Shown: in pieces, positions 1,570 through 34,470 of the stretch
Position numbering within the stretch: the first letter of the stretch is position 1
Layout of the letters: the number at the start of each line of letters is the position of its first letter
From: an uncultured Candidatus Poseidoniales archaeon
GTDB taxonomy: Archaea; Thermoplasmatota; Poseidoniia; Poseidoniales; Poseidoniaceae
DNA: 64,000 nucleotides
Reading direction: 5' to 3'
Assembly: GCA_964526445.1 (NCBI GenBank)
Contig: CAZGIY010000001.1
Location: 20,363-84,362 of the forward strand
The notes under the pieces: generated by a model
Database searches by the model: none
What the model saw: only the letters and a program-made list of their open reading frames with translations
Told to the model about the DNA's origin: nothing
Made by a program: the position numbers and the translations under genes

Positions 1570-1701
1570 GTTAATCACCCCTCTGTCAGGGGCAGGCCAT
1601 TTGAACCGTGCCCTTATGCGATGTACATGCGGAGCCTGATGTTGGACATTGGTCCCTTGGCACATTTGTCGCATGGTTCAGGTCTCTTACGAGGACAAGA
1701 G

Positions 1702-2907
1702 ATGTTGGATGAAGAGAACCTAATCACTGATTCTGGCAAGGGAATTTTGATTGAAAATGGTCAAATTTCAGCGATTGAGGACTCGGATGAGTTGCGCGAG
1801 GAATACCTCGGTGGGCAAAAAGGACGTAATCTGAGCTCTCAGGAATTCGATGGAATTGAACTGCTGGAAGTAGGAGGGCGCGCAGTCATTCCCGGATTGG
1901 TTGATGCTCATACTCACTTGATGTGGGGCGGAGATCGTTCTAGAGAAGCGCGATGGAGGCAACAGGGCCTCTCCTATCACGAAATCGCCCAAAAAGGAGG
2001 GGGAATTGCACATACTGTCAACGAAACTAGGGGATTGCCATTGGATAATCTGGTGAAAATTGGGCTAGATAGAATTCACACTGCTTTGTTGAATGGAACT
2101 ACGGCTATGGAGGTGAAGAGTGGCTATGGTTTAGACACAGAGTGTGAATTGAGACTTCTACAGGCTGCTGAGGAACTTCGGGGAGTTTCGATAGATTCTA
2201 CATGGCTAGGTGCGCATGCTGCACCTCCTGGAATGAAGAGGGAGGATTATGTTGAACAGATTCTATCTGAACAGTTACCTGAGGTATTGGATTCAGGTCT
2301 CGCCCGAAGTGCAGATGTTTTTTGTGAACCAGGGTGGTTCACTTTGGAAGAAACAGAAGAAATCTGCAAAGCAGCAATGGCTGGAGGAATGGATATACGG
2401 CTCCATGTGGATGAATTCGCAGATGCAGGTGGTTTATCTCTAGCCGCCGAATTAAACTCGCAATCTGGTGATCATGCTCATTGGAGTAGTGATGATGCGA
2501 GATCAAAGGCAGATGCTGCGAACACATTGCAATGCTTCTTACCAGGTACACCCTATTCTATGGGCGAGACACATTTCCCTCCTGCATCAGAGTGTATTGA
2601 AAACGGCTATGCTTGGGCAGCAGCAACCGATTTCAACCCGAATTGTAGAATATTGTCATTACCGTTTGTAGGAAGTCTATTGACTCAGCGAATGGGTGTG
2701 GATCCTCTGGCTAGTTTGGTGGCCGTCTCAAGAAATCCGGCCCAGGTTACTATGCACGAGGAAGGGTTGGATCATGGCATGATCAAAGTTGGAGGTGCGG
2801 CAGATATCAACATTCTAGCATCCCCATTCTGGGAGTCCTGGTGTCAACAGCCAAGCAATTCACCCTTTGCGGTTACTCTTAGGTCAGGTGTGGCGACATA
2901 TTATTGA
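1702..2907 (+). CDS. hutI: Imidazolonepropionase HutI
   Basis: Amidohydrolase with PGLVDAHTHLMWGGDRS...QGLSYHEIAQKGGGI...EVKSGYGL motifs, near-collinear with B. subtilis HutI. The track ORF begins at 1621; ATG at 1702 (MLDEENLI...) is preferred as it leaves a 132 nt divergent intergenic region to kae1. Confidence 0.85.
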   Translation: MLDEENLITDSGKGILIENGQISAIEDSDELREEYLGGQKGRNLSSQEFDGIELLEVGGRAVIPGLVDAHTHLMWGGDRSREARWRQQGLSYHEIAQKGGGIAHTVNETRGLPLDNLVKIGLDRIHTALLNGTTAMEVKSGYGLDTECELRLLQAAEELRGVSIDSTWLGAHAAPPGMKREDYVEQILSEQLPEVLDSGLARSADVFCEPGWFTLEETEEICKAAMAGGMDIRLHVDEFADAGGLSLAAELNSQSGDHAHWSSDDARSKADAANTLQCFLPGTPYSMGETHFPPASECIENGYAWAAATDFNPNCRILSLPFVGSLLTQRMGVDPLASLVAVSRNPAQVTMHEEGLDHGMIKVGGAADINILASPFWESWCQQPSNSPFAVTLRSGVATYY

Positions 2908-6246: not shown

Positions 6247-7176
6247 ATGGCAGGGGTGCTTAGTGGCATGGGAATGCTGCCGCAGGAAGGTTCATGCCAC
6301 CTTATCGAAGAAGGGGTGGATGCTACATTCGCGTGGTTGGATCGCATCAATGCGGCAGGATACCACGCTATGCTGATGACTAGATTGCCTCCCCGCAGAC
6401 TGCTTGGTAAGGTAGATTTGAACAATATTGAAACATTGTGGCTTACTGAACGCGATGCTTCAAATGCCCTAACTCCCAGTCTTGAAAGAATCGCAAGTAG
6501 AATGCGTGATAGAATGGCAGAAAAATCAGGCATCATCATTCTTGATGGGCTTGAGCACTTGATGAGCCAACATGGTTTTGCCGCAGTATTGACATTTCTA
6601 AGGGCTATGATTGATGATTTGAGCACTTCAGCTTGGAGCCTATTGATTCCTGTAGAACCTCTTGCATTTGAAGATACAGAGATTGCAAGATTGCGCAGGG
6701 AGGCTCCGGTATGGAAGATTCCTCAACCAGAAGAAAGCGATGAAGAGGACTTAGAGGATGATGAAACAACGTTCCAAGAGATTATCTCCCCTGCAGAAGG
6801 TGACGAGGAATTACCCACATATGACACTGCAGGTGATGGTTCAATACGACTTGTACATCTGACTAAATTGCCTAGGGCCGGATTCAGTAGTTCTATTCTC
6901 AGAAGAAGAATTCTTGCGTGGAGGAGAATGGGGCTAGATGTTAGTGAACTTGAGCCAGCGATGAAATATCAGGATATTGATAGGGCATATGCTCTCTACA
7001 GGGTTGTTGAGGAGAAGGTCCGTACTGCGGTTGAATTGGATAGGAGAGTCGACCTCCTTGAAAGCGCAGGAGATAGCAGCAATGCCGCGTCTTTCAGGTT
7101 TAGAATTAGGCAACTAACCGGGCTGGAAGAAGTTTGGAGGTCCTTGGATATATTGTTGAAAGATCAATCGATATAA
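6247..7176 (+). CDS. DUF835-family protein with acidic linker
   Basis: Central ...GIIILDGLEHLMSQHGFAAVLTFLRAMIDDL...LLIPVEPLAFED... resembles the archaeal DUF835 domain, followed by an EESDEEDLEDDE acidic stretch. Converges on hutH with an overlap of 13 nt. Confidence 0.5.
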   Translation: MAGVLSGMGMLPQEGSCHLIEEGVDATFAWLDRINAAGYHAMLMTRLPPRRLLGKVDLNNIETLWLTERDASNALTPSLERIASRMRDRMAEKSGIIILDGLEHLMSQHGFAAVLTFLRAMIDDLSTSAWSLLIPVEPLAFEDTEIARLRREAPVWKIPQPEESDEEDLEDDETTFQEIISPAEGDEELPTYDTAGDGSIRLVHLTKLPRAGFSSSILRRRILAWRRMGLDVSELEPAMKYQDIDRAYALYRVVEEKVRTAVELDRRVDLLESAGDSSNAASFRFRIRQLTGLEEVWRSLDILLKDQSI

Positions 7177-8753
7177 TTTGAAAGTCCTTGATCATCAGCA
7201 AAGCCATTGAGGAAATCATACGCTAAGTCTGCAATTTCTTGACTCAAACTTCTGTCTCCTTCAAGGGGGGCTACAATCCTTCTAACATGTGTATATAGGG
7301 CCTTGACGCCTTCTCCTAGCTCTTCGCTTATGTGTTCCAGCCCTTCACAGGCAATCAGCGCCTCACAAGCGAGAACATCTGCCAATCTCTGCGAGGCTTG
7401 CAAGAGATACCATGCTGCCGTTGCAGCCATACTAACATGGTCTTCTTGATTAGCAGAGGTTGACAGGCTAAATGTACTGTGCGGACGCGTATGTGCCCTC
7501 ATGTCTGCAATAGAAGCTGCAGCAGAATATTGCACAATCATCAATCCTGATTCAAGGCCGGATTGTGAAGCCAAGAAGGCTGGAAGTGAACTCCTTTTGG
7601 CATCGAGCATAGTATCCATGCGTCGTTCACTGATACTAGCCAATTCAAAGACGGCTGCATTCATTGCATCTGCAGCAAGTCCCAAAATTTCGCCATGGAA
7701 GTTACCCCCGCTAACCACTTCATGTGGACCTGGGTTCTTAGAATCAGGAAAGATCAACGGGTTATCAGTTGCAGAATTCAATTCGATAGTAATGACTTCA
7801 TACAGTCTGTGCAGTGCTTCATTAGCAGGCCCATGGACTTGTGGGGCACACCTGAATGAGTATGGGTCTTGAACACGGTCACAATCAGCGTGCGATTCAA
7901 GATTTGACGAATTTTGCATAGCCTTTCGAATCCGTGAAGCAACTAGTGCTTGACCAGAATGCGGCCTTGCCCTGTGCAATCTCTTATCGGCAGGAGCAAT
8001 AGAAGATTTTGTTGCCTCAATTGATGCGCATAAAATCAGATCGCAAAGGGGGAGTAGGTCCCTCAGGACAGCGTAAGAAATAGACAGCCAAGATAATATT
8101 TGGCTGGTCCCATTAATCAGTGACAAGCCCTCCTTGGCTTGCAAGGTTATTGGATTAAGATCGCAGGCAGCAAGTGCTTTTTTCGTTGGCATAATGTTTC
8201 CATCTTCATCGCACACTTCTCCTTCTCCAATCAGGGTTAAGGCGACATGAGACAACGGTGCGAGGTCTCCAGATGCCCCAAGGCTCCCGATACGCGGAAC
8301 TACAGGGGTCAAACCAAGATTCAACATTTCCAAAATTCTTTCAATAACGCTAATTCTAATGCCACTGTTTCCCTTACACAACGAATTGGCTCTTGCTACC
8401 ATCATCGCTCTGACAGGAACAGCATCCATGGGCTCACCGATTCCACAGGCATGACTTCGAATCAAGTTGGTTTGCAAATCAGAAAGGCTGGCTGCATCTA
8501 TTCTAGTATTGCACAATGCGCCGAATCCAGTATTGATTCCATAGGCAGTTTCTTCTCGTTGAATTATTCCTTCTACTGTTTTTCTAGCGGAATCAATTCG
8601 AGTCCTTGCATCCTCGCAAATAGAAACTGTGGCAATTCCAGTCGCTACTAGAAGCATTGCTTCAGGAGACAGCGTTGCACCGTCCAGCTCAATATTCAAC
8701 AATCTACCCCGCTCCTTGCCATCGATATCCATTGAATACAGTTGCTCAATCAA
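7164..8753 (-). CDS. hutH: Histidine ammonia-lyase HutH
   Basis: MIO-forming GSLGASGDLAPLSH motif plus the TGFGALCNTRI and LIRSHACG lyase class I motifs. Confidence 0.9.
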   Translation of the reverse strand: MIEQLYSMDIDGKERGRLLNIELDGATLSPEAMLLVATGIATVSICEDARTRIDSARKTVEGIIQREETAYGINTGFGALCNTRIDAASLSDLQTNLIRSHACGIGEPMDAVPVRAMMVARANSLCKGNSGIRISVIERILEMLNLGLTPVVPRIGSLGASGDLAPLSHVALTLIGEGEVCDEDGNIMPTKKALAACDLNPITLQAKEGLSLINGTSQILSWLSISYAVLRDLLPLCDLILCASIEATKSSIAPADKRLHRARPHSGQALVASRIRKAMQNSSNLESHADCDRVQDPYSFRCAPQVHGPANEALHRLYEVITIELNSATDNPLIFPDSKNPGPHEVVSGGNFHGEILGLAADAMNAAVFELASISERRMDTMLDAKRSSLPAFLASQSGLESGLMIVQYSAAASIADMRAHTRPHSTFSLSTSANQEDHVSMAATAAWYLLQASQRLADVLACEALIACEGLEHISEELGEGVKALYTHVRRIVAPLEGDRSLSQEIADLAYDFLNGFADDQGLSNYID

Positions 8754-10776
8754 AGGCTCCCTTCATGACGTCATCAGAAACGAGATTTGGCAGTGTAATC
8801 TCAAGCAATGGTTCTACTTCCATTGCTCGTTTGATGGCAAAAATAGCCTCCTTATTTCGGGCCCATGAACGTCTTGCAATACCATTGTTAACGTCCCATG
8901 CTAACATTGAATCAATTCTGCGCTGAGAATCCATGCTACCATCAATGAACATCCCGAAACCACCATTGATAACCTCACCCCAACCAACGCCTCCACCATT
9001 GTGTAGACTTACCCATGTTGCACCTCTAAAAGAATCACCAATCACGTTGTGAACAGCCATATCTGCAGTGAAACTTGAACCATCTTTGATGTTCGCAGTC
9101 TCGCGATAAGGAGAATCTGTTCCTGAAACGTCGTGATGATCACGTCCAAGTACCACACCTTCCTTCAGGCGTCCATCGCGAATTGCATCGTTGAATGCGG
9201 TGGCGATTCTACGCCTTCCTTGTTCATCAGCATAGAGTATTCTGGCTTGACTACCGACTACCATTCTGTTTTGTCCAGCCTGCTCAATCCACCTGATATT
9301 ATCTCTGAGTTGCTGCGAGATTTCAGGAGGTGACTCTTCCAACATTTTCAGCAACACATCTCGAGCCAATTTATCGGTGACTGCAAGATCATCTGGATCC
9401 TGGGAACAGCATACCCAGCGGAATGGACCAAAACCTAGGTCAAAGCAACGTGGGCCCATTATGTCCTCGACATAGGATGGGTGAATGAACCCGCCCTTGC
9501 CATCGGATAATTCTGCACCTGCTCTATCCGCTTCTAGCAAGAAGGCATTGCCGTAGTCCCAGAAGTATGTGCCCCTTTCCACCATAGTGTTGACCGCTGC
9601 AGCATGACGAAGTAGAGAATGACGAACTGCTTCAGCAAATCCGCTAGGATTAGAAGCAATCATTTGTTTGGCATCATCAAATGAGATGTCGACGGGGAAG
9701 TAGCCTCCTTGCCAAGGGTTATGGAGGCTAGTTTGATCACTTCCAAGATCGATATCTATTCCTCTCTCAACCAATCGTTCCCAAAGGTCGACAATATTCC
9801 CTACGTGCCCTATTGAAACTGCCTCGCCGCGCGACTTAGCTTCGAGCATTCTATCTATGACTTTGTCAACATCGTCATGCAATTCACTTAGCCAACCTTG
9901 TTCATGCCGCTTCTTAGCTGCAGTGGGATTGATTTCGGAAATAACTGCAACACAGCCTGCAATAACCGCAGCCTTTGCTTGAGCACCTGACATGCCCCCC
10001 AATCCTGAAGTTACGTAAGTCACACCTGCTAGACTACCATCAGCAGGAATACCTAAGCGCATCCTAGCCGCATTCAGTATTGTTATCGTAGTTCCATGAA
10101 CTATTCCTTGGGGGCCAATATACATGTATGAACCCGCAGTCATTTGTCCGTATTGTGAAACTCCGAGGGCATTCATCCTCTCATAGTCTTCTTGAGAACT
10201 ATGATTTGGAATTACTATTCCATTGGTTACTACCACGCGAGGAGCTTCTGCATTTGAGGGAAAAAGACCTAATGGATGTCCGGAGTACATGACCAAGGTT
10301 TGTTCTTCAGTCATCTTACTGAGATATCGCATGGTCAATCTATACTGGACCCAGTTTTGGAAAACGGCACCGTTTCCACCATAGGTAATCAATTCACATG
10401 GGAATTGGGCAACTGCGGGGTCCAGATTGTTTTGAATCATTGCCATGATGCTTGCTGCTTGCTTGCAGCGACTTGGATAGGCAGTCAATGGATGAGCTTT
10501 CATCTCATATTGAGTTGGTCTGAATCTATGCATGTATATTCGGCCATGGCTATTCAATTCATCGAGAAATTCACGCGCCAATTCACTATGCCATGATTCA
10601 GGAAAATACCGCAACGCATTTCGAAGAGCCAATATCTTCTCATCTTCAGTTAGAATCTGACGTCTAGAGGGGGCATGGTCGACCTTCAATTCTATTTCTG
10701 TAGGACGGGTTAACTCCCGCGGAATTCCTTCGGCGACATGACGTCGCAGAGAATCCCACTGTTGGCCCATGAGCAC
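8746..10776 (-). CDS. hutU: Urocanate hydratase HutU (long, eukaryote-size 676 aa form)
   Basis: Urocanase motifs (NNLDPAVAQFPCELITYGGNG, GGMSGAQ, TDSPYRETANIKDGS). An 8-nt overlap with hutH indicates an operon. Confidence 0.9.
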   Translation of the reverse strand: MLMGQQWDSLRRHVAEGIPRELTRPTEIELKVDHAPSRRQILTEDEKILALRNALRYFPESWHSELAREFLDELNSHGRIYMHRFRPTQYEMKAHPLTAYPSRCKQAASIMAMIQNNLDPAVAQFPCELITYGGNGAVFQNWVQYRLTMRYLSKMTEEQTLVMYSGHPLGLFPSNAEAPRVVVTNGIVIPNHSSQEDYERMNALGVSQYGQMTAGSYMYIGPQGIVHGTTITILNAARMRLGIPADGSLAGVTYVTSGLGGMSGAQAKAAVIAGCVAVISEINPTAAKKRHEQGWLSELHDDVDKVIDRMLEAKSRGEAVSIGHVGNIVDLWERLVERGIDIDLGSDQTSLHNPWQGGYFPVDISFDDAKQMIASNPSGFAEAVRHSLLRHAAAVNTMVERGTYFWDYGNAFLLEADRAGAELSDGKGGFIHPSYVEDIMGPRCFDLGFGPFRWVCCSQDPDDLAVTDKLARDVLLKMLEESPPEISQQLRDNIRWIEQAGQNRMVVGSQARILYADEQGRRRIATAFNDAIRDGRLKEGVVLGRDHHDVSGTDSPYRETANIKDGSSFTADMAVHNVIGDSFRGATWVSLHNGGGVGWGEVINGGFGMFIDGSMDSQRRIDSMLAWDVNNGIARRSWARNKEAIFAIKRAMEVEPLLEITLPNLVSDDVMKGAFD

Positions 10777-10810
10777 CGGTGAAGGAATGCTCTCTTATCC
10801 ATTACCACGT

Positions 10811-13516
10811 TCAAACTGGAGAAATTGCAACAGCTTGCACCTTGTATTCTGGACATCTTGTATAACTGTCTGAGGATGAACTCAGTACTGTGTTAACTCC
10901 AGTTTCTGGGAAGTGGAATGTGGTGAATAGATTACCAATCCGGACATCTTCGGTTACAACAGCAGTCATTTGGATCTTATTTCGAGGACTGGAAAGCCAG
11001 ACCTTTGCTCCGTCCACGATATCTAATCTATGAGCATCCTTGGGATGTATCTCAAGAAAATCGTCAGCATGGAACTCGCTTAGGCCAGTTCTTCGAGTCT
11101 GAGTACCTGAATTGTAATGGAATAGGTTGCGTCCAGTGACCAAAATGAATGGGTATTCATCGCTTGCCTTCTCAGCTGGTTCAGCAAATTCTGGGGCCGC
11201 AAAATTTCCCAGTCCACGCGAGAATCTATCTATGTGCATGACATTAGTTCCAGGATGTTCCTTTTCAGGCGCTGGCCATTGAATCGCATCGACATTTTCC
11301 AGTTTGTCATAGGTGATGCCAGTGAAATTAGGAGTCAGTGATGCGATTTCATTCCAAATATCAGAAACAGAATCTGATGAGATTATTGGGTGTCCGAGGG
11401 CCTCTGCCAATTCTGAAACAATACGCCAATCTTCTTTTGCGTCTCCAGGAGGCGGGATGGCCTTGCGAATTCGCTGTACTCTTCTTTCGCCATTAGTATA
11501 CGTTCCATCCGATTCGAGGAAAGAAGCAGCAGGCAAAATGACATGAGCAAATTTTGCAGATTCACACATGAATATATCCTGAACAATCAGTAGATCGAGT
11601 TTGGATAATGCCTCTTGAACGCGTTGATTATTAGGGTCGGTCTGGGCGATATCTGAGCCAATCATGTATAGAGAACGCATCTTACCTTCAAACACTTTCT
11701 CAAGCATGACGGGATAGGTCATTCCAGGTGTTTCAGGAACATCCACCCCCCAGGCAGCAGAGACCTCCGACCTTCTTTCAGGATCTGAAACAGATTGATA
11801 ATTGGTGTAAACATTCGGTAATGCTCCCATATCACAGGAACCCTGAACGTTGTTTTGTCCACGAAGTGGATTTATTCCAGTACCCGGCCTTCCAACATTA
11901 CCCGTCAACAAAGCAAGACTGGATAGAGACATGACACCCTCGGAGCCATGGCTATGTTCGGTCATTCCTAGACCATGAACAGACATTGCGGCATTTGCAG
12001 AAGCATAGAGATGTGCTGCCCTCTCAAGAACATCTATCGGAACTGTAGTTAATTTTGAACACAATTCAGGGGTCATCAATTGAACCATTTCCTTGTATGG
12101 CCCAAGGTTCTCGGTTCTACTGCTCATCCATTCATCACTAGCCTGCAATCCATCCCTCAAGATGATGTGAGCGAGTCCTTGATAGAGAGCTACGTTGGTT
12201 CCTGGGCGTAATTGAAGATGAACATCCGCTATTTTTGCCAACTCTGTTTCCTTTGGGTCAGCGACAACCAATTTCATTCCTCTTTTTCTTGCCCTCAATA
12301 TTCTAGAACCGGTTACAGGATGCCCGTGAATTGGATTACATCCTGATGCTAGCAATAGATCGGTTTTGTCGATATCCTCTAGGCTGTTGGTTCCCGCACC
12401 TGCTCCAAATACTGTCATCATTCCCTTGACAGTTGCAGAATGACAAACTCTTGCACAATTGTCTACATTATTGGTTCCAATTACAGCGCGCATCAATTTC
12501 GAACCAAGATAATTCAATTCATTAGTGGAACGAGATGATGTTATTGCCCCGATGGAATCGGGACCTGACTCGTCTTTGTACAGTTGCCATCGCTTAGCGA
12601 TGTAGGAATATGCTTCATCCCAACTGACCTCACGGAAATCTTCCTCGATAGAGTCTCTAATCATCGGCTTAGTCAAACGGTCTTGGTGATGAACATATGC
12701 AGATGCAAATCGTCCTTTGACACAGGAATGACCTTGGTTCACCGGGGACTCAGCGACAGGTTTCATGGAAACTAGTTTGTCGCCTTTGACTCCTGCATCA
12801 AATTGACAACCAACACCACAGAATGCACAAGTTGTACGTACCCATTCATCTGCCACCCCATGCTTGCGTTCAACCTTATCTTCCAAGGCAGCAACAGGAC
12901 ATTCGTTGACACAAGCACCACATGATACACATTCTGATTCCATGAAAGGAACATCGGCACCTGCAATGATTTTGCTAAAGAATCCACGTCCATCAATCGA
13001 TAGAGCATGAGTTACTTGTATGTCGTCACAAGCACGTATACACCGTGAACATACAATGCATTTAGTGGGATCAAATGAGAAAAAAGGATTCGAGTCATCG
13101 ATTGGCATTCCTTCACACGATGGCGTATTGTCATACCTCACCTCGCGCAATCCAACTTGTGCTGCCACATCCTGTAATTCGCAATCACCATTGGCGGTGC
13201 ATGTCAGACAATCCAACGGATGTTCACTAACATATAGTTCTGTGATTCCTCTTCGCAACTGCCAGAGCCTATCGGATGTTGTTGCAACATTCATTCCAGG
13301 GCTTGCAGGAGTAGTACATGATGAAGGTGTGCCCCGAACTCCATCGATTTCAACAACACAGATACGACAAGAACCGAATGCATCAAGATGTGGAGAATCA
13401 CACAGACTAGGGATATCTATTCCGTTGTTCCTAGCAACCTGCATCACTGTTTGCCCGTTTTCAGCAACGACAACTGTATCATCGATGGACATTGTAAAAG
13501 AATTTTCACTCACCAT
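10811..13516 (-). CDS. fdsA: NAD-dependent formate dehydrogenase alpha subunit (FdsA/NuoG-like, Mo-bisPGD)
   Basis: N-terminal 2Fe-2S ferredoxin (CDSPHL...CRICVVE), His-ligated and two 4Fe-4S motifs, and a molybdopterin oxidoreductase domain with a Cys ligand (NVDNCARVCHSATV). There is no in-frame TGA, so no selenocysteine. Confidence 0.85.
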   Translation of the reverse strand: MVSENSFTMSIDDTVVVAENGQTVMQVARNNGIDIPSLCDSPHLDAFGSCRICVVEIDGVRGTPSSCTTPASPGMNVATTSDRLWQLRRGITELYVSEHPLDCLTCTANGDCELQDVAAQVGLREVRYDNTPSCEGMPIDDSNPFFSFDPTKCIVCSRCIRACDDIQVTHALSIDGRGFFSKIIAGADVPFMESECVSCGACVNECPVAALEDKVERKHGVADEWVRTTCAFCGVGCQFDAGVKGDKLVSMKPVAESPVNQGHSCVKGRFASAYVHHQDRLTKPMIRDSIEEDFREVSWDEAYSYIAKRWQLYKDESGPDSIGAITSSRSTNELNYLGSKLMRAVIGTNNVDNCARVCHSATVKGMMTVFGAGAGTNSLEDIDKTDLLLASGCNPIHGHPVTGSRILRARKRGMKLVVADPKETELAKIADVHLQLRPGTNVALYQGLAHIILRDGLQASDEWMSSRTENLGPYKEMVQLMTPELCSKLTTVPIDVLERAAHLYASANAAMSVHGLGMTEHSHGSEGVMSLSSLALLTGNVGRPGTGINPLRGQNNVQGSCDMGALPNVYTNYQSVSDPERRSEVSAAWGVDVPETPGMTYPVMLEKVFEGKMRSLYMIGSDIAQTDPNNQRVQEALSKLDLLIVQDIFMCESAKFAHVILPAASFLESDGTYTNGERRVQRIRKAIPPPGDAKEDWRIVSELAEALGHPIISSDSVSDIWNEIASLTPNFTGITYDKLENVDAIQWPAPEKEHPGTNVMHIDRFSRGLGNFAAPEFAEPAEKASDEYPFILVTGRNLFHYNSGTQTRRTGLSEFHADDFLEIHPKDAHRLDIVDGAKVWLSSPRNKIQMTAVVTEDVRIGNLFTTFHFPETGVNTVLSSSSDSYTRCPEYKVQAVAISPV

Positions 13517-15461
13517 TCATACCTCCAAAAGACGCTGGCCACTTCTTCATAGTAGAGCGGATAGGCATCATCGCTAGACCCCCGAGTGCACATAGTGAAG
13601 TGGAACTCATTATATCATCGAGGTCGTCCAAAAGTTGTCGGTCTCCAATCTTTTCATGCTCGGTACCTATCCTTCTCAATAGTTCCAGTGCACGCTGCGT
13701 GCCTATTCTACAAGGAGTGCATTTCCCGCAACTCTCATCTCTAAAGAATTTCATCCAACCTATGGATTCTTCACGGGGATCAAATTCACTATCATAGCAA
13801 ACGAATCCTCCATGTCCAAGAAGACCTCCAGACTCGCTTAACCCTTCGAATGATAACTCCACAGAATCCAATTCTTCGATAGCAAATACTCCTCCCAATG
13901 GGCCCCCAGCTTGGACAGCAACAACTCCTTCAAGGTCAGAATGTTTTCTGAACATCTCAGCGACAGTTCCTCCAAATGGTATTTCCACGCATACTGGCTC
14001 TTTGACAGCACCTACAATTTGAGCGATAACTGTGCCCTTACTCCTCTCAGTACCCAATGACCCATACTGTTCTCCTCCTTCTCTTAATATCACAGAAACC
14101 AATGCAAAGGTGAGGACATTGTTGACAATTGTAGGTTTACCATAGAGTCCTGATTGAGTAGGATATGGTGGCCTTGCTCTTACTTCACCCCTCCTTCCTT
14201 CAAGACTTTCTAGAAGCGCTGTTTCCTCGCCACAGACGTACGAACCAGCCCCCAAAGCGATTGAGATGTCGAAATGATCACCTAGAATCCCTTCATCCCT
14301 AGCGTCCTGAAGTGCAGTTTCAAGAATCAACTCAGCATTTGGATATTCGCTTCTAAGGTAGACCTTGCCATATCTTGCGCCGATAGCAGAGCCACATATT
14401 GCCATCCCTTCGATTAAGGCATGAGGGTCCCCTTCGATAATCATCCGGTCGATGAAAGTACCAGCATCACCCTCGTCAGCGTTGGCGACCACGTACTTGA
14501 CATCACTTTCCTCTGCTGCAGCTGCAGCCCACTTGAAATGAGTAGGGAATCCAGCACCACCGCGCCCCCTCAATCCAGCAATTTCGAGTTCATTCAAAAT
14601 CTCTCGAGTACCGATTTCTTTAGCTTTGTTAAGTCCAGAATATGAACCTCTTTTCCTAAGACCTTCAATATCTAAGGGATTTACTTCTCCAAGATTGGCC
14701 ATAGCAAAACGTCTTTGCTCAGCGAATGCAGGAATCTCAACAATCTTACCCAATGACTTAGCGTGGTTAGAATATTCACCAGAATCAATCAAACTAAGAA
14801 TCTCCATTAACTCTTCAGAGTTGATAGGTCCAAATCCACATCTTTCTCCGTTAATGTCCAATTCCAGCATCGGTTCTAGATTGAAGATGCCTCTGCTACC
14901 AGTTCGAATCAGTGCGGAATCGTCGGGAGCGTGATGCAGCAATGTTACTGCCAACTTTTCACTTCCCTTCTCCATACTCATGCTGTCTTGACTGATGTAG
15001 AATTGTAATCCAGCCCCCGCCCTTGAAACAGGATTAAATTGTTCAACATCTTCCTTGACAATTGCTGGACCTACTGCACACAAGCCTGCGCAGTGTAATG
15101 AACCAATCTTCTCTCCAGCATTCTCCAATTTTTCAATGACTCCTGCGGCGCCTCTTGCCCTACAGGCCTCTCCAGTACATACTCTGATTGTGGCCTCCTC
15201 TGGCTTGAGTTCAGCATAGTAACCTATGGCGCCTCTGACCTTTGCAGAAGTTGTTCCCGTAAGTGAGGCGATTTCTGCGATTCTTTCGACACTTGGCTCA
15301 CCTTTGGTTCGCACTTCTTCTTTCAAAATGTCGAGAAGCTCGTGTCCTGGACGAGCGGGGTCCCAATCATTCTCAACAGGATTCATTCTTTCACCTCCTT
15401 CTGCTCTTAGGTTTGCGTAGGTAGATGGGTTTGTCAAAGTTCTCCAGAAATATTCTTTCAA
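13506..15461 (-). CDS. fdsB: Formate dehydrogenase beta subunit, fused NuoE-like/NuoF-like (NAD+/FMN/Fe-S)
   Basis: GRGGAGFPTHFKW FMN/NAD site, ESCGKCTPCRIG 4Fe-4S, and an N-terminal thioredoxin-like 2Fe-2S (NuoE) part. Overlaps fdsA start by 11 nt. Confidence 0.85.
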   Translation of the reverse strand: MKEYFWRTLTNPSTYANLRAEGGERMNPVENDWDPARPGHELLDILKEEVRTKGEPSVERIAEIASLTGTTSAKVRGAIGYYAELKPEEATIRVCTGEACRARGAAGVIEKLENAGEKIGSLHCAGLCAVGPAIVKEDVEQFNPVSRAGAGLQFYISQDSMSMEKGSEKLAVTLLHHAPDDSALIRTGSRGIFNLEPMLELDINGERCGFGPINSEELMEILSLIDSGEYSNHAKSLGKIVEIPAFAEQRRFAMANLGEVNPLDIEGLRKRGSYSGLNKAKEIGTREILNELEIAGLRGRGGAGFPTHFKWAAAAAEESDVKYVVANADEGDAGTFIDRMIIEGDPHALIEGMAICGSAIGARYGKVYLRSEYPNAELILETALQDARDEGILGDHFDISIALGAGSYVCGEETALLESLEGRRGEVRARPPYPTQSGLYGKPTIVNNVLTFALVSVILREGGEQYGSLGTERSKGTVIAQIVGAVKEPVCVEIPFGGTVAEMFRKHSDLEGVVAVQAGGPLGGVFAIEELDSVELSFEGLSESGGLLGHGGFVCYDSEFDPREESIGWMKFFRDESCGKCTPCRIGTQRALELLRRIGTEHEKIGDRQLLDDLDDIMSSTSLCALGGLAMMPIRSTMKKWPASFGGMNGE

Positions 15462-15464
15462 AGT

Positions 15465-16340
15465 CTAATTAGAATCGTTTGGGCGGATATAGGAAACTGT
15501 ACTCCCATTTCTTGTAAAGCCAAATAACGCTAGTCCTGCTTGTCTAGACAGATCTACTGCCATACTACTTGCAGCACCTATGGCTACTATGATTGGAATC
15601 CCTGCAGCGATTGCTTTGAGCACTAATTCAGAGCCAATTCTTCCAGAAAGACATAGTATTGACTTGGAGAAATCAATGCTCATTCGGACGCCAGCTCCAA
15701 CCACTTTGTCAACACAATTGTGTCGGCCAATATCTTCTCTGACAACAATCATTTCACCCTCGGCTGTGAACAATCCAGCAGCATGAATTCCCCCAGTGGT
15801 CGTGAATGCAGACTGTACGGTAAGCATCTTATGTGGCAATCCGATCAAAAGTTCGCTATCAACATGCATAGCAGGAATGGAACAGTCATGGGCCTTGGAT
15901 AGAAGATCTGCAAAATCTTGACGTCCACATATGCCGCATGCAGAACCATTACTGATTCTGCCCCTTGGGGTAACGTCATATTCAGCATCCTCGGGAATGA
16001 TGATACTAGCATTTCCTTCAGACAAGATGATTTCGATATCCTGTATTGGGCAATTAGTCAAAATCCCTTCACTGATTAATAGTCCCAATACCAAATCAGC
16101 GTCAGAACCGGGGGTTCTCAAGATACTGACCCAGCGTTCAGTAGAATCATTCTTAACCAAATCAATACTCAATGGTTCTTCTGTGGCAACCACATCTTTC
16201 TCCATTACCCACTTGCCATCCTTCAATCGATGAACGGCGCGTCTGACCACATCGTCCATGACAAGACCTGAAGCAACATGGTCATGAACATGTTCATCGA
16301 TTGAAATGGTTTCAAGATTCCAATCTCGCTCGCACAGCAT
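15465..16340 (-). CDS. fdhD: Formate dehydrogenase accessory sulfurtransferase FdhD
   Basis: FdhD-like with SACGICG cysteine loop and GRHNCVDKVVG motif. Lies 3 nt upstream of fdsB. Confidence 0.75.
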   Translation of the reverse strand: MLCERDWNLETISIDEHVHDHVASGLVMDDVVRRAVHRLKDGKWVMEKDVVATEEPLSIDLVKNDSTERWVSILRTPGSDADLVLGLLISEGILTNCPIQDIEIILSEGNASIIIPEDAEYDVTPRGRISNGSACGICGRQDFADLLSKAHDCSIPAMHVDSELLIGLPHKMLTVQSAFTTTGGIHAAGLFTAEGEMIVVREDIGRHNCVDKVVGAGVRMSIDFSKSILCLSGRIGSELVLKAIAAGIPIIVAIGAASSMAVDLSRQAGLALFGFTRNGSTVSYIRPNDSN

Positions 16341-16953
16341 CCATGCATTCTCTCGATAATTGCCTCGATTTCTCTAGAATCTGTGCCGCTTCTTCGCTAT
16401 ATTGCTCAGCCGCATCACCTTCCATTCCAATCAGGTTGATATCAACATTGAACAGGGCACCTTTACAGGCTGCTGAAGCAAGCAGGGCCGCAACTCCGAC
16501 ATCGGTCACTGCATTTCCGTTACCAGTGGTCGCAAGTGATGGAAGCGTTTCAAGCAACGAATAGGCAAGTCTAGCGGTTTCTAAGGGTACCTCTGCTGCA
16601 CCAAGAGTCGCTTCTCTAATGGCTTGTTTGCGAAGGTTTTTCTCTTCATCAGAATCCTTGGCAAGTCGATATGCCATCATGACTCCGTCAAAGGAACGAC
16701 TGTCGTCAGTTGCGAGGTCTAAAGAACGAGAAAACATCGATATTGCAACTTCTTGAGAAGTTTCTGCATCCTGCCAGCCATCTTTCCATTTTTCATTACC
16801 TATGGTAAGATCCGCAACCATGCAAGTCAATGCCGCCGCCTGTCCTAAAGAGACCGCAGCCGCAGTTCCACCCCCGGGGGTTGGAGATGAACTAGCAAGT
16901 GCAGTTTGGAAGTCCCGCAAACTCATTTCCGCCCAGTCATCATCACTCTGCAT
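16312..16953 (-). CDS. Formimidoyltetrahydrofolate cyclodeaminase (FTCD C-terminal domain homologue, stand-alone)
   Basis: SLRDFQTALASSSPTPGGGTAAAVSLGQAAALTCMV closely matches the cyclodeaminase domain of FTCD. Confidence 0.8.
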   Translation of the reverse strand: MQSDDDWAEMSLRDFQTALASSSPTPGGGTAAAVSLGQAAALTCMVADLTIGNEKWKDGWQDAETSQEVAISMFSRSLDLATDDSRSFDGVMMAYRLAKDSDEEKNLRKQAIREATLGAAEVPLETARLAYSLLETLPSLATTGNGNAVTDVGVAALLASAACKGALFNVDINLIGMEGDAAEQYSEEAAQILEKSRQLSRECMDAVRARLES

Positions 16954-17996
16954 TATTCATCCCTCCTGACTGCCATCTCAATGATTCTTTCCTTCGCTAC
17001 GAATGGGGCCAAGTCATCCAAGCCCATACCCTTTACTGCAGCGCTGATTAATTCCCCCTCCTCCTCTGTATCAGGTGCGTACCATCGCCCAGCATCCAAC
17101 ATTGCACGAATTGGCACCAGTCCTACCAATTCACTACCACTAACTTCGACACCGTAATTGCTAGCCAACCATTTGATTGTCTCGTAAACAACATGCATCG
17201 GAGTAACAGAGATGTCTTGTAGGTTCATGGAGACTTGAGAGATTCCATGTTCATCCAGTGGAAAACCCATACCCTGGACTTTTGCAAGCATTCCCGATAC
17301 CGGCAACCGATTTCCGTTAGAATTTTTTATGACTGGTCCTGATTGCCTGATGGTTTTGCCAATTGCTGCACTGACTCTTGCATCACTTTCCTGCAGATTG
17401 ACATTGTATGCAACCAAAATGTCTCTCGCACCGATAATCACCGCACCTGTTTTGGCGATTTCTTCACTCCAAATAGTCGGTCCAAAATCAGGCAATCTCG
17501 TCTCATTTGCATGAGGAGTTTCCGCTCCTTCACTCATTCTAGCTTCAAGTCCCTCGTATTCGCCCTTTCGGAGCAGACTGTGGTTACTCCTTTGTTCTGT
17601 ACTCGCTGCTGCACCGTATAGATATGCAGGCAGATTCAATTCTTCACTGACACGAATAGCAAGTCGTCTGGCTAATTCTGCGCAACTCAGCATATCGATA
17701 CCCTGCAATGGGACGAATGGACATACATCTACTGCCCCTAACCTCGCATGATTTCCACTATGTTTTCTCATGTCGATTAGTTTGATTGACTCTTTAATCA
17801 ATTGAAAGGCTGATTCACTGACCGCATTTGGATCACCAGCCAAAGTAATGACAGTCCTATTGTAATCGGCATCAGGTTCTGCCGAGAGAACTCTACAGCC
17901 ATCGATACTTGAGGCTGCAGCAACAACTGCTGCAATTACTTCTTCATCTATTCCTTCGCTGATATTCGGAACACATTCAACCAAAGGGTTGGTCAT
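16953..17996 (-). CDS. Glutamate formimidoyltransferase (FTCD N-terminal domain homologue, stand-alone)
   Basis: MTNPLVECVPNISEG...NRTVITLAGDP...HARLGAVDVCPFVP is collinear with the formiminotransferase domain of mammalian FTCD. A 1-nt overlap (ATGA) with the cyclodeaminase gene indicates translational coupling. Confidence 0.85.
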   Translation of the reverse strand: MTNPLVECVPNISEGIDEEVIAAVVAAASSIDGCRVLSAEPDADYNRTVITLAGDPNAVSESAFQLIKESIKLIDMRKHSGNHARLGAVDVCPFVPLQGIDMLSCAELARRLAIRVSEELNLPAYLYGAAASTEQRSNHSLLRKGEYEGLEARMSEGAETPHANETRLPDFGPTIWSEEIAKTGAVIIGARDILVAYNVNLQESDARVSAAIGKTIRQSGPVIKNSNGNRLPVSGMLAKVQGMGFPLDEHGISQVSMNLQDISVTPMHVVYETIKWLASNYGVEVSGSELVGLVPIRAMLDAGRWYAPDTEEEGELISAAVKGMGLDDLAPFVAKERIIEMAVRRDE

Positions 17997-18026: not shown

Positions 18027-18599
18027 CTACTGGTCTTGACGTTCCTCTATTGCGGACACAACTTCATCTGGGAGATCAAAGAATTCCAACTGCATCCTCA
18101 CCAATTCTTCACTACTTTCCGCAGAAGCATATGCCTCCAATGGTTCTTGATTTAAGGTAATGAATTGTTCACCCCAAGAAAATGATGCAAGCAGGGTTTT
18201 TGCCTGTTCAGAATATCCTAGTAACCACAGTGATGCAGCCAATGCCTCAGCACTACTGAGCCTTCCAGGTTTGCCCCAATTTACAGGGTTGGCAGCAAGC
18301 AATAGAGGCAGCATTCTTGCTTGAAGACGCGTTCGTTTTGAAACAATATCAACACTTTCTTCAATATGTGCCCAACTACAATCGAGAACCACGAGATTGC
18401 CACGATTTGACATCATTTCGCGGTCTTCAGGACCGAGAACTTTTCCGCATAATGGGTCAAGAATTATTCCTTTGCGTGGAAGTTTTGTCAACCGCTCATG
18501 CAAAGTGATGAGTCCTCTTCTGCCAAGTTTCACGGCAGTATTCTTAGATTTGTCATCCTGAGCAAGCCAGATTGCATGAACAGATATTTCATCCATCAA
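18027..18599 (-). CDS. tsr3: 16S rRNA aminocarboxypropyltransferase Tsr3 (DUF367)
   Basis: LVVLDCSW motif and the RLSSAEALAASLWLLGY / FSWGEQFITLN C-terminal region typical of Tsr3. Confidence 0.65.
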   Translation of the reverse strand: MMDEISVHAIWLAQDDKSKNTAVKLGRRGLITLHERLTKLPRKGIILDPLCGKVLGPEDREMMSNRGNLVVLDCSWAHIEESVDIVSKRTRLQARMLPLLLAANPVNWGKPGRLSSAEALAASLWLLGYSEQAKTLLASFSWGEQFITLNQEPLEAYASAESSEELVRMQLEFFDLPDEVVSAIEERQDQ

Positions 18600-18605
18600 G
18601 ATTCC

Positions 18606-19097
18606 TCAATCCTCTAGAAAATCACCAAGAGTCATTCCACGAGAAGAACCTTCTCCGACTTGTCGGTTTTCATCTGGTTTCACTTCTACCATCAATGAGA
18701 TTCCAAGTGTTCTTTCCAATTTCTTGATTAAGGTATCAGTTGGTCGCTTACCTGCCTCAGCTGCTTGAATCATGTTGAATTTTTCAGCCATTCTTCTAGC
18801 TAATTCTCGTTTATCCCAGCCCTTTTTTTCTCTTGCATCTGCAATTACCTTTGAGAAGTCATCTCGTAACTCTTTACTTCCTCTATGCATTATGTCCTTT
18901 CCTGCCTTCCCTAGGCCAGAATAACCACCATGTGAACTCGAACTTGGCGAGTTAGTGTTTCTCCGAGGAGTTGGGGTTGCAATTGTCTGTAATCCCATGG
19001 ACTCAATACAACGAATACAGGCTTCAATCGTTGCTTTACCCATCTTGACGCTGCGAATAGATGTCTTTTCCGCACCGCATAACTCACAGTTTACCAT
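18606..19097 (-). CDS. mbf1: Multiprotein-bridging factor 1 (archaeal MBF1: Zn-ribbon plus XRE HTH)
   Basis: N-terminal CELCG...CIRC zinc ribbon and C-terminal KGWDKRELARRMAEKFNMIQAAEAG HTH. Confidence 0.65.
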   Translation of the reverse strand: MVNCELCGAEKTSIRSVKMGKATIEACIRCIESMGLQTIATPTPRRNTNSPSSSSHGGYSGLGKAGKDIMHRGSKELRDDFSKVIADAREKKGWDKRELARRMAEKFNMIQAAEAGKRPTDTLIKKLERTLGISLMVEVKPDENRQVGEGSSRGMTLGDFLED

Positions 19098-34445: not shown

Positions 34446-34470
34446 CAAGAATGAATGCTTGTATTGCCCT

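What the first reader, a model, noticed from the sequence alone, without database searches (positions are those of the whole stretch)
7164..17996. Histidine degradation genes co-transcribed with formimino-THF enzymes and a complete NAD-dependent formate dehydrogenase
Seven genes lie head-to-tail on the minus strand with overlaps or gaps of at most 34 nt. They are glutamate formimidoyltransferase, formimino-THF cyclodeaminase, fdhD, fdsB (NuoE/F fusion), fdsA (Mo-bisPGD), hutU and hutH. Together with hutI nearby, this encodes the FTCD (eukaryote-type) route from histidine to glutamate plus 5,10-methenyl-THF. That route is physically welded to the enzyme that oxidises formate to CO2 with NADH production. 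This suggests a dedicated module that burns the imidazole C2 carbon all the way to CO2, or conversely feeds formate-derived C1 into the pathway. I am not aware of Hut and Fds being described as one operon, which is inference from memory. MBF1 and tsr3 sit directly upstream on the same strand with gaps of 6 and 30 nt, so they may be co-transcribed as well.
Basis: partly seen in the sequence, partly recalled or inferred. Interest (0 to 1): 0.75.

Follow-up and report, generated by a model that had tools for sequence, protein, structure and literature searches.

The report
Formate dehydrogenase embedded in histidine-degradation genes
In a marine group II archaeon, a bacterial-type NAD-linked formate dehydrogenase sits between the genes for folate-dependent histidine breakdown; relatives in one family keep a formate dehydrogenase at this spot, which suggests but does not prove that they burn histidine's one-carbon unit to CO2.

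Summary
Window 7164-17996 (minus strand) encodes FtcD, an FTCD_C cyclodeaminase-type protein, FdhD, an FdsG-FdsB fusion, FdsA, HutU and HutH. HutI lies at 1639-2907. The organism is a Ca. Poseidoniales (marine group II) archaeon.

Comparison with about 35 related loci shows a conserved formate dehydrogenase (FDH) slot directly upstream of hutU in one part of the order:
- four lineages have fdhD-fdsB-fdsA there in the same orientation as hutU
- two have fdsBA there but inverted
- about 14 have a different FdhD plus a YdeP-family FDH-like enzyme, with or without an MFS transporter gene
- ten have ftcD-fcd-hutU-hutH with no FDH

The same FdsBA also occurs elsewhere as a stand-alone unit in five lineages. 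None of 100 bacterial hutU loci has an FDH gene nearby.

Conserved promoter-like elements precede fdsB and hutU, so a single seven-gene transcript is doubtful.

The most likely reading (about 0.5) is a real functional link: histidine's C2 passes through formimino-, methenyl- and formyl-THF to formate, then to CO2 plus NADH. The formyl-THF-to-formate enzymes (FolD, Fhs or PurU) are not in the window and could not be checked.

I found no published description. It is a new variant of known systems, of moderate interest.

The parts
18606..19097 (-). aMBF1 (HTH multiprotein bridging factor). A housekeeping neighbour, not part of the pathway.
   Evidence: TIGR00270 98.8 bits and PF01381. The pair with tsr3 is conserved upstream in architecture types A, B, C and E, but lies on the other strand in type D loci.
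18027..18599 (-). Tsr3 (16S rRNA aminocarboxypropyltransferase family). A housekeeping neighbour.
   Evidence: NF002621 182 bits against a cut-off of 152; PF04034.
16953..17996 (-). FtcD, glutamate formimidoyltransferase.
   Evidence: TIGR02024 299 bits against a cut-off of 221; PF07837 plus PF02971.
16312..16953 (-). FTCD_C protein, a presumed 5-formimino-THF cyclodeaminase. The family also contains methenyl-THF cyclohydrolase FchA.
   Evidence: PF04961 174 bits; FchA model NF045657 scores only 156 against a cut-off of 275. An AGGAGG site and a TAATG stop/start overlap link it to ftcD.
15465..16340 (-). FdhD (equivalent to FdsC), the sulfurtransferase and chaperone for the FDH Mo-bisPGD cofactor.
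   Evidence: PF02634 178 bits. In the tree it groups with the FdhD of stand-alone fdhD-fdsB-fdsA units of other marine group II lineages.
15429..15442 (-). Conserved element GAACTTTGACAAAC in the 78-nt fdhD|fdsB gap. A candidate fdsB promoter or operator.
   Evidence: A match to AAYWTTSACAAR lies 42-76 nt upstream of fdsB in seven lineages, whatever the genomic context.
13506..15386 (-). FdsG-FdsB fusion: an N-terminal NuoE-like [2Fe-2S] domain followed by a NuoF-like FMN/NAD/[4Fe-4S] module.
   Evidence: PF01257, PF01512 and PF10589. The best PDB matches are C. necator 6vw7_B and R. capsulatus 6tg9_B. Residues 1-145 best match FdsG 6tg9_G, with the Cx4C...Cx3C motif. It has no C-terminal ferredoxin domain of the kind found in bifurcating HydB.
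10811..13516 (-). FdsA, the Mo-bisPGD formate dehydrogenase catalytic subunit with a NuoG-like Fe-S N-terminus.
   Evidence: TIGR01591 815 bits against 666. It aligns end to end with R. capsulatus FdsA 6tg9_A (929 bits), including CARVCHS and PLRGQNNVQG.
10790..10803 (-). Conserved element AATGGATAAGAGAG, 33 to 20 nt upstream of the hutU ATG. A candidate TATA-like promoter for a leaderless hutUH transcript.
   Evidence: AATnGATAAGrGA is conserved in L083-L086 (HutU 75-83% identical) while the surrounding spacer varies. Types C and E have AATGCTCAAAG at the same distance. It resembles the element CGGATAAATAGA upstream of tRNA-Val. It occurs once in the window.
8746..10770 (-). HutU, urocanate hydratase, long form with an N-terminal extension.
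   Evidence: TIGR01228 406 bits against 375; three urocanase Pfam domains.
7164..8732 (-). HutH, histidine ammonia-lyase.
   Evidence: TIGR01225 580 bits against 539. The start follows the public gene calls.
1639..2907 (+). HutI, imidazolonepropionase. It lies 4.3 kb from hutH on the other strand.
   Evidence: TIGR01224 283 bits (cut-off 298). It holds the same position in all long marine group II loci, and the L045 orthologue scores 312.

Best explanation
The window comes from a Ca. Poseidoniales (marine group II) archaeon. Its folate-dependent histidine-degradation genes have acquired a self-contained cassette for an NAD+-dependent, FdsABG-type molybdenum formate dehydrogenase, inserted directly upstream of hutU. 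The hut genes are hutH, hutU, hutI, ftcD and the cyclodeaminase gene. The cassette is fdhD, an fdsG-fdsB fusion and fdsA.

Proposed working:
1. HutH, HutU and HutI convert histidine to N-formiminoglutamate.
2. FtcD moves the formimino group to THF and releases glutamate.
3. The FTCD_C protein releases NH3 and gives 5,10-methenyl-THF.
4. A cyclohydrolase (FolD, or the FTCD_C protein itself) gives 10-formyl-THF.
5. Fhs (which would yield ATP) or PurU frees formate and regenerates THF.
6. FdsA and FdsGB oxidise formate to CO2 and pass the electrons through Fe-S clusters and FMN to NAD+.

This keeps the THF pool free during peptide and histidine catabolism and recovers reducing power from the imidazole C2.

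What is shown: the enzyme identities, the intact catalytic and cofactor motifs, and conservation of the FDH slot next to hutU.

What is inferred: steps 4 and 5, and therefore the formate link itself, as well as the direction of FDH catalysis and co-regulation.

The cluster is probably not one obligatory transcript. It looks like three adjacent units (mbf1-tsr3-ftcD-fcd-fdhD, fdsBA and hutUH), each with its own promoter-like element and no terminators between them.
For: Enzyme identities and motifs:
- FdsA aligns over its full length with R. capsulatus FdsA, with the Cys-His and Arg motifs present.
- FdsB is closest to C. necator and R. capsulatus FdsB, and its N-terminus matches FdsG with four Cys.

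Conservation:
- The same seven-gene order occurs in L085 (HutU 75% identical).
- L086 (HutU 77%) begins inside fdsB and shows fdsB-fdsA-hutU-hutH.
- L084 (HutU 78%) shows only the FdsA C-terminus directly before hutU.
- fdsBA sits at the same slot, but inverted, in L169 and L173.
- A different cassette, FdhD2 plus a YdeP-family enzyme with or without an MFS gene, fills the same slot in about 13 further lineages.
- L083 is nested inside the Fds-type clade by both HutU and FdhD, yet carries a YdeP-type enzyme in place of FdsBA. That is an in-situ swap.
- The YdeP-type enzyme keeps the FDH Cys-His (NMCHES) and RGHSNVQG motifs.
- The FdhD tree splits into an Fds-associated clade and a YdeP-associated clade. 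This points to two independent cassettes at one site.

Negative control: none of 100 bacterial long-type hutU loci with at least 3 kb of upstream sequence has an FDH-related gene.

No terminator-like site lies at any junction of the cluster.
Against: - No folD, fhs or purU is in the 64-kb window or in any fetched locus. The step that makes formate is therefore unverified.
- The same FdsBA is a stand-alone unit away from hut in five marine group II lineages, so it clearly works without hut adjacency.
- On the FdsA tree the hut-embedded copies form one derived clade. The Fds-hut association could stem from a single relocation that was then inherited.
- Unrelated genes (PAN, MBF1, Tsr3, DUF835, the EF-hand protein, HutI, Kae1) are just as conserved in position across these loci. 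Inherited synteny alone could keep the genes adjacent.
- Ten marine group II lineages have ftcD-fcd-hutU-hutH without an FDH.
- Conserved promoter-like elements upstream of fdsB and hutU, together with the inverted variants, argue against obligatory co-transcription.
Confidence: 0.5

Rival explanations
1. Positional coincidence kept by descent. FdsBA (or the YdeP-type enzyme) is the cell's general-purpose formate dehydrogenase. It oxidises formate from the environment or from other reactions. It landed next to hutU in an ancestor of one Poseidoniales subclade and has stayed there because the whole region is syntenic. There is no specific metabolic or regulatory tie to histidine.
For: - Stand-alone fdsBA or fdhD-fdsBA units occur in five lineages, three of them with their own divergent TrmB-like regulator.
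- The hut-embedded FdsA copies form a single derived clade.
- Flanking housekeeping genes are equally conserved in order.
- fdsB keeps the same upstream element whether it is embedded or stand-alone.
- fdsBA is inverted in L169 and L173.
Against: - Two non-orthologous FdhD+FDH cassettes occupy exactly the same intergenic slot in different clades. In L083 one replaced the other in situ. This is hard to explain by chance in a genome of about 2,000 genes.
- The slot persists through inversions that moved ftcD-fcd or PAN-MBF1-Tsr3.
Confidence: 0.35
2. The FDH-like enzymes at this slot act on a substrate other than free formate. This could be a formyl or formimino compound, or formamide, arising from histidine catabolism. 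Alternatively they serve mainly as an electron-input module for another process.
For: - YdeP-family enzymes have no established substrate (own knowledge).
- The pathway step that would produce free formate was not found.
Against: - FdsA is 50% identical to bacterial FdsA proteins. It aligns end to end with the characterised R. capsulatus enzyme, including all catalytic motifs.
- The YdeP-type enzyme also keeps the Cys-His and Arg motifs.
- The presence of FtcD means the C1 unit leaves on THF, not as formamide or N-formylglutamate.
Confidence: 0.07
3. Reverse direction. The FDH reduces CO2 to formate with NADH in order to feed the C1-THF pool.
For: FdsABG-type enzymes are reversible in vitro (own knowledge).
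Against: - The neighbouring genes are catabolic and already deliver a C1 unit to THF.
- Marine group II archaea are described as aerobic photoheterotrophs (abstract of PMC6336850, listed), with no known need for CO2-derived formate.
- NADH-driven CO2 reduction is thermodynamically unfavourable at ambient CO2 (own knowledge).
Confidence: 0.03

Closest known systems
FtcD-type hut operon of Bacteroidales and other anaerobes (ftcD-fcd-hutU-hutH-hutI)
   Same: The enzymes and the gene order ftcD-fcd-hutU-hutH are the same. Both have the long-form HutU, 63-67% identical to the window protein. Marine group II type D loci have this exact order.
   Different: In the window three FDH genes are inserted between fcd and hutU, and hutI lies 4 kb away on the other strand. 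None of 100 bacterial loci has an FDH nearby.
FdsGBACD NAD+-dependent Mo-formate dehydrogenase of Rhodobacter capsulatus (PDB 6tg9) and Cupriavidus necator (6vw7)
   Same: FdsA aligns over its full length (929 bits) with the Cys-His-Arg active site and all Fe-S motifs. FdsB carries the FMN/NAD module. The FdsG-like [2Fe-2S] domain is present. FdhD corresponds to FdsC.
   Different: FdsG is fused to the N-terminus of FdsB. There is no FdsD gene in the cluster, and no gap exceeds 78 nt. The host is an archaeon. The marine group II proteins form their own clade at about 50% identity to the bacterial ones.
Formimino-THF to formate to CO2 route of purine-fermenting clostridia (Gottschalkia acidurici, C. 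cylindrosporum). Cited from own knowledge, not checked here.
   Same: The chemical logic is the same. A formimino group is moved to THF. A cyclodeaminase, a cyclohydrolase and formate-THF ligase then yield formate, and a formate dehydrogenase oxidises it.
   Different: There the donor is formiminoglycine, the organisms are strict anaerobes, and the FDH is not the NAD-linked Fds type. I know of no hut-FDH gene linkage in them.
Mammalian FTCD plus 10-formyl-THF dehydrogenase (ALDH1L1). Cited from own knowledge.
   Same: The outcome is the same: histidine's C2 enters as formimino-THF and leaves as CO2, with a reduced nicotinamide cofactor formed and THF regenerated.
   Different: Mammals oxidise 10-formyl-THF directly without free formate. 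FTCD is one bifunctional protein there, whereas here it is two genes.
FdhF/YdeP family (TIGR01701), which includes E. coli YdeP and Methylobacterium Fdh4A (the latter from own knowledge)
   Same: The enzyme that fills the slot in about 14 related marine group II loci scores 911 bits on TIGR01701. It keeps the FDH-type Cys-His and Arg motifs.
   Different: It is not present in the window itself. It has no NuoEFG-like partner, and its electron acceptor and substrate are unknown.

Membership tests
Histidine utilisation pathway, FtcD (THF-dependent) branch | Histidine ammonia-lyase (HutH) | tested here: met
   TIGR01225 equivalog model, 580 bits against a cut-off of 539.
Histidine utilisation pathway, FtcD (THF-dependent) branch | Urocanate hydratase (HutU), as opposed to the thiourocanate hydratases | tested here: met
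   TIGR01228 406 bits against 375. The thiourocanate models score far below their cut-offs.
Histidine utilisation pathway, FtcD (THF-dependent) branch | Imidazolonepropionase (HutI) | tested here: inconclusive
   TIGR01224 283 bits, just under the cut-off of 298. The positional orthologue in L045 scores 312.
Histidine utilisation pathway, FtcD (THF-dependent) branch | Glutamate formimidoyltransferase plus formimino-THF cyclodeaminase | tested here: met
   FtcD: TIGR02024 299 bits against 221. FTCD_C: PF04961 174 bits. Sequence alone cannot separate cyclodeaminase from cyclohydrolase activity.
FdsABG-type NAD+-dependent Mo/W formate dehydrogenase | Alpha subunit with a NuoG-like Fe-S N-terminus, a Mo-bisPGD domain, and the catalytic Cys(/Sec)-His and Arg | tested here: met
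   TIGR01591 815 bits against 666. End-to-end alignment to 6tg9_A with CARVCHS and RGQNNVQG conserved.
FdsABG-type NAD+-dependent Mo/W formate dehydrogenase | NuoF-like FMN/NAD(H) subunit and NuoE-like [2Fe-2S] subunit | tested here: met
   Both lie in one polypeptide. The best PDB matches are FdsB (6vw7_B, 6tg9_B) and FdsG (6tg9_G). The Cx4C...Cx3C motif is present.
FdsABG-type NAD+-dependent Mo/W formate dehydrogenase | FdsC/FdhD maturation factor encoded with the enzyme | tested here: met
   PF02634 178 bits, directly upstream of fdsB.
FdsABG-type NAD+-dependent Mo/W formate dehydrogenase | Small FdsD subunit | tested here: not met
   No unassigned ORF exists in the cluster and no gap exceeds 78 nt. 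FdsD could be encoded elsewhere or be dispensable.
FdsABG-type NAD+-dependent Mo/W formate dehydrogenase | Formate:NAD+ oxidoreductase activity | not testable with these tools
   This needs a biochemical assay.
   The largest gap is 78 nt, and no terminator-like site lies at any junction.
   Conserved promoter-like elements lie upstream of fdsB and hutU. fdsBA is inverted in L169 and L173. The promoter function of these elements is inferred, not measured.
   No transcriptome data were available.
Complete route from histidine C2 to CO2 | Methenyl-THF cyclohydrolase plus formate-THF ligase or formyl-THF deformylase in the same genome | not tested
   None is in the window or in the fetched loci.

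The most novel reading that the evidence does not exclude
In the Poseidoniaceae-like part of marine group II there is a selectively maintained formate dehydrogenase slot directly upstream of hutU. It is filled interchangeably by an FdsGB-FdsA enzyme or by a YdeP-family enzyme. If so, these very abundant planktonic archaea oxidise the one-carbon unit of histidine, and perhaps other THF-bound C1 units, through free formate to CO2. It would also mean that YdeP-family molybdoenzymes, whose substrate is unknown, are physiological formate dehydrogenases.
Probability: 0.35. Interest if true: 0.55.

Novelty: new variant of a known kind. Interest (0 to 1): 0.45.

Why it matters
Marine group II archaea are among the most abundant heterotrophs in the surface ocean and have never been cultured. 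Their published genome surveys note a complete molybdenum-cofactor pathway, but they do not mention formate or histidine anywhere in the main text or in the supplementary files held as text.

This locus gives that cofactor a concrete client, an oxygen-tolerant-type NAD-linked formate dehydrogenase. It also ties that enzyme, by gene neighbourhood, to amino-acid catabolism. If the link is functional, three things follow:
- It explains how these cells keep their folate pool free while degrading peptides.
- It adds formate oxidation to their energy budget.
- It gives a rare physiological clue to the function of YdeP-family enzymes.

If the link is not functional, the locus is still a clean example of how conserved synteny can imitate an operon.

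Tried and rejected
- **Search for Fhs and FolD.** I ran PROSITE-style signature searches over all six frames of the window and the 173 fetched loci and found nothing. Pfam annotation of essentially all window ORFs of 110 aa or more found no folD, fhs or purU. This says nothing about the other roughly 97% of the genome. I had no way to fetch other contigs of the same genome. A database search with a bacterial Fhs query would have listed only bacterial hits.
- **Literature.** Nine full-text searches and reads of the main marine group II genome papers found no mention of a hut-FDH link, or of formate or histidine metabolism in these archaea. The nearest concept was a C. ljungdahlii paper noting that FtcD-route histidine degradation feeds methenyl-THF into the Wood-Ljungdahl methyl branch.
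- **Sigma-70 promoter scan.** It gave no more sites than shuffled sequence (19 against 19.7) and is not relevant to an archaeon.
- **Window-wide GATAA[AG] test.** I tested whether this motif is a general promoter box. It occurs within 80 nt upstream of only 5 of 53 genes, plus tRNA-Val, against about 1.9 expected. That is too weak to define a consensus. The promoter argument therefore rests on cross-lineage conservation of the elements, not on a consensus.
- **An Asgard archaeal origin.** I considered this at first because of the eukaryote-like HutU length, the EF-hand and WD40 proteins and the actin-like protein. I rejected it because the named homologues are Poseidoniales.
- **An electron-bifurcating FDH.** Rejected because FdsB lacks the extra C-terminal ferredoxin domain of bifurcating HydB and is closest to the FdsB proteins of the NAD-dependent formate dehydrogenases.

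Full report
**1. What is in the window**

ORF listing confirms seven head-to-tail ORFs on the minus strand between 7164 and 17996. Two more lie directly upstream, at 18027-18599 and 18606-19097.

Pfam and NCBIfam assign the seven as follows:
- FtcD: TIGR02024, 299 bits (cut-off 221)
- an FTCD_C domain protein: PF04961
- FdhD
- a NuoE-like plus NuoF-like fusion
- a formate dehydrogenase alpha subunit with a NuoG-like N-terminus: TIGR01591, 815 bits (cut-off 666)
- HutU: TIGR01228, 406 bits (cut-off 375)
- HutH: TIGR01225, 580 bits (cut-off 539)

The two upstream genes are aMBF1 and Tsr3. HutI lies at 1639-2907 on the plus strand (TIGR01224, 283 bits, just under the cut-off).

The rest of the window is archaeal housekeeping, together with futalosine-pathway, pentose-phosphate and isoprenoid genes. 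It contains no folD, fhs or purU.

The same contig is found in two independent public assemblies. GC content is uniform across the window.

**2. Gene junctions**

However, fdsB has a strong GGAGGTG site 6 nt before the ATG at 15386, and one public gene call uses that start. This leaves about 78 nt after fdhD. The FdsA|HutU gap is 40 nt and the HutU|HutH gap is 13 nt.

fcd and fdsA have clear Shine-Dalgarno sites and overlap the stop codon of the preceding gene. No terminator-like structure lies at any junction.

**3. The formate dehydrogenase**

- FdsA aligns end to end with the structurally characterised FdsA of Rhodobacter capsulatus (6tg9_A, 929 bits). The alignment includes the Cys-His pair (CARVCHS), the Arg motif (PLRGQNNVQG) and the Fe-S cysteines.
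- FdsB is closest to the FdsB subunits of C. necator and R. capsulatus.
- The first 145 residues of FdsB best match FdsG of R. capsulatus and carry the four cluster cysteines.
- FdsB lacks the additional ferredoxin domain of electron-bifurcating relatives.

The enzyme is therefore an FdsABG-type NAD-linked Mo-FDH. FdsG is fused to FdsB, FdhD serves as the FdsC equivalent, and there is no FdsD in the cluster.

**4. Organism**

Named homologues of HutU and FdsA are Candidatus Poseidoniales, Poseidoniaceae and Thalassarchaeaceae, that is, marine group II of the Thermoplasmatota.

**5. Synteny around hutU**

I scanned GTDB species genomes and JGI metagenomes with a HutU alignment. I looked up six individual contigs by their HutU or FdsA protein and four more by FdsA. 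I classified all loci by tblastn with the window proteins.

The marine group II loci fall into these architectures:

| Type | Arrangement | Loci |
|---|---|---|
| A | ftcD-fcd-fdhD-fdsB-fdsA-hutU-hutH | window, L085; L086 and L084 are cut off upstream (L086 shows fdsB-fdsA-hutU-hutH, L084 only the FdsA C-terminus before hutU) |
| B | the same, but a 758-aa YdeP-family enzyme replaces fdsBA | L083 |
| C | mbf1-tsr3-fdhD2-ydeP-MFS-hutU-hutH, with ftcD-fcd inverted beyond PAN | about 13 lineages, e.g. L003, L004, L007, L008, L011, L089, L091-L094, L096, L097 |
| E | fdsBA between fdhD and hutU, on the opposite strand | L169, L173 |
| D | PAN-ftcD-fcd-hutU-hutH, no FDH | ten lineages |

The type C enzyme scores 911 bits on the FdhF/YdeP model TIGR01701. 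The L083 protein keeps the FDH-type Cys-His and Arg motifs.

None of the 100 bacterial long-type hutU loci with at least 3 kb of upstream sequence has an FDH-related gene. Bacteroidales show the plain order ftcD-fcd-hutU-hutH-hutI.

**6. Synteny around fdsA**

Marine group II FdsA proteins form a tight clade (70-98% identity). Identity then drops to about 50% for bacterial FdsA.

Of ten lineages with known context:
- five have fdsBA in the hut locus (three type A loci and two type E);
- five have it elsewhere.

Of the five elsewhere, three have fdhD-fdsB-fdsA next to a divergent TrmB-family regulator (L170-L172). The other two have fdsB-fdsA alone (L166, labelled Thalassarchaeaceae, and the very abundant L167/L168).

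**7. Trees**

- On a neighbour-joining tree, the hut-embedded FdsA copies (types A and E) form one derived clade. This is consistent with a single relocation into the hut locus followed by an inversion.
- The FdhD tree has two deep clades. One holds the FdhD of stand-alone Fds units together with types A, B and E. The other holds the FdhD2 of type C.
- L083 is nested inside clade A by both HutU and FdhD, yet it carries a YdeP-type enzyme 64% identical to the type C one.

Two different FdhD+FDH cassettes have therefore come to occupy the same intergenic position directly upstream of hutU. In at least one lineage, one catalytic subunit replaced the other in situ.

**8. Transcription units**

- The fdhD|fdsB spacer carries a conserved element: GAACWTTGACAAAG in relatives and GAACTTTGACAAAC at window 15429-15442. 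It lies 42-76 nt upstream of fdsB in seven lineages, whether or not fdsBA is embedded in hut.
- The fdsA|hutU spacer carries AATGGATAAGAGAG (10790-10803), 33 to 20 nt before the hutU ATG. This is conserved in L083-L086 while the flanking spacer diverges. Types C and E have AATGCTCAAAG at the same distance.
- The hutU element resembles the element upstream of the tRNA-Val gene, and hutU lacks a clear Shine-Dalgarno site. This fits a leaderless hutUH transcript with its own promoter.

A window-wide test of the GATAA[AG] motif was too weak to define a consensus. Promoter function is therefore an inference from conservation.

Taken with the inverted type E loci, this makes a single obligatory seven-gene transcript unlikely. 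Read-through cannot be excluded, because no terminators are seen.

**9. Interpretation**

The FDH-next-to-hutU arrangement is specific to marine group II. It has persisted through several rearrangements and is realised with two non-orthologous FDH systems. That is the strongest argument for a functional tie.

FtcD and the cyclodeaminase load histidine's C2 onto THF at the formate oxidation level. Release as formate through a cyclohydrolase plus Fhs or PurU, followed by oxidation by FDH, would regenerate THF and yield NADH.

Four observations count against this:
- The same FdsBA works as a stand-alone unit in other lineages.
- The embedded Fds copies have a single origin.
- The whole neighbourhood, including clearly unrelated housekeeping genes, is syntenic across the same loci.
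- The formate-producing enzymes were not found in the accessible sequence.

I put the functional-link reading at about 0.5. Inherited coincidence with a general-purpose FDH is about 0.35. Other readings together are about 0.1.

**10. Comparison with known systems and novelty**

All the parts are members of well-known families: the Hut enzymes, the split FtcD and FTCD_C proteins as in Bacteroidales, and an FdsABG-type FDH. The pathway logic has precedents in purine-fermenting clostridia and, in outcome, in mammalian FTCD plus 10-formyl-THF dehydrogenase (both from own knowledge).

What appears new:
- the physical embedding of an FDH cassette in a hut cluster;
- its recurrence with two FDH types in one archaeal family;
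- the FdsG-FdsB fusion in archaea.

Nine literature searches and reads of the main marine group II genome papers found no description of it. A 2025 paper on C. ljungdahlii notes the conceptual link between FtcD-route histidine degradation and methenyl-THF of the Wood-Ljungdahl pathway, but reports no gene linkage to FDH.

I class the finding as a new variant of a known kind, of moderate interest.

Noticed in passing
window 15429-15442 (minus); L170 8063-8074, L171 8071-8082, L172 8066-8077 and the bases after them: The element upstream of fdsB (GAACATTGACAAAG) runs into a short palindrome, CAAAGSS-N3-SSCTTTGG, in the three stand-alone fdhD-fdsBA loci. L172 has a compensatory change (GCC/GGC to GGG/CCC). 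Those loci also have a divergent TrmB-family regulator gene. This could be an operator or a 5' hairpin. The window copy keeps only the 5' half.
   Followed up: partly
window 8746-10770; L009-L082 and L100-L165: The long-form HutU (674 aa, with an N-terminal extension as in eukaryotic urocanase) is shared by marine group II and Bacteroidota at 63-67% identity. Bacteroidota sequences group with the type D marine group II clade in a rough tree. The order ftcD-fcd-hutU-hutH is identical in both, which hints at inter-domain transfer of the hut cluster. One hit at 70% identity comes from a eukaryote transcriptome set (P0046) and may be contamination.
   Followed up: partly
L004 8704-9945 and the equivalent position in type C loci: An MFS transporter gene sits between the YdeP-type enzyme and hutU in most type C loci. 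Its best NCBIfam match is a generic H+ antiporter subfamily. The substrate is unknown; formate, histidine and urocanate are candidates.
   Followed up: no
window 4235-6142 and 6247-7176: A 635-aa protein with a double zinc ribbon and EF-hands, and a DUF835 protein convergent with hutH (overlapping it by 13 nt), flank hutH in most marine group II loci long enough to show that side, including several type D loci.
   Followed up: no
window 51481-53190: A single 569-aa ORF combines a NUDIX domain with a polyprenyl synthase domain. This may be a fusion of an IPP isomerase-like enzyme and a prenyltransferase.
   Followed up: no
window 28872-29780, 32328-33218, 33228-34517, 56718-57980: There are two VitK2_biosynth (MqnA/MqnD-type) genes, a CofH/MqnC-type radical SAM gene and a UbiD-family decarboxylase gene. 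Together these suggest futalosine-route menaquinone synthesis.
   Followed up: no
protein P0161: An FdsA 70% identical to the window protein, and so inside the marine group II clade, is labelled 'Opitutales bacterium' in NCBI. This is either a mis-binned contig or a recent transfer to a bacterium.
   Followed up: no
L170-L172, 2-5 kb upstream of fdhD: Superoxide dismutase genes lie 2-3 genes beyond the divergently transcribed TrmB-like regulator and Fe-S assembly genes that adjoin the stand-alone fdhD-fdsBA unit. L170 has the Ni type; L171 and L172 have the Fe/Mn type. This fits an oxygen-exposed setting for this FDH.
   Followed up: no
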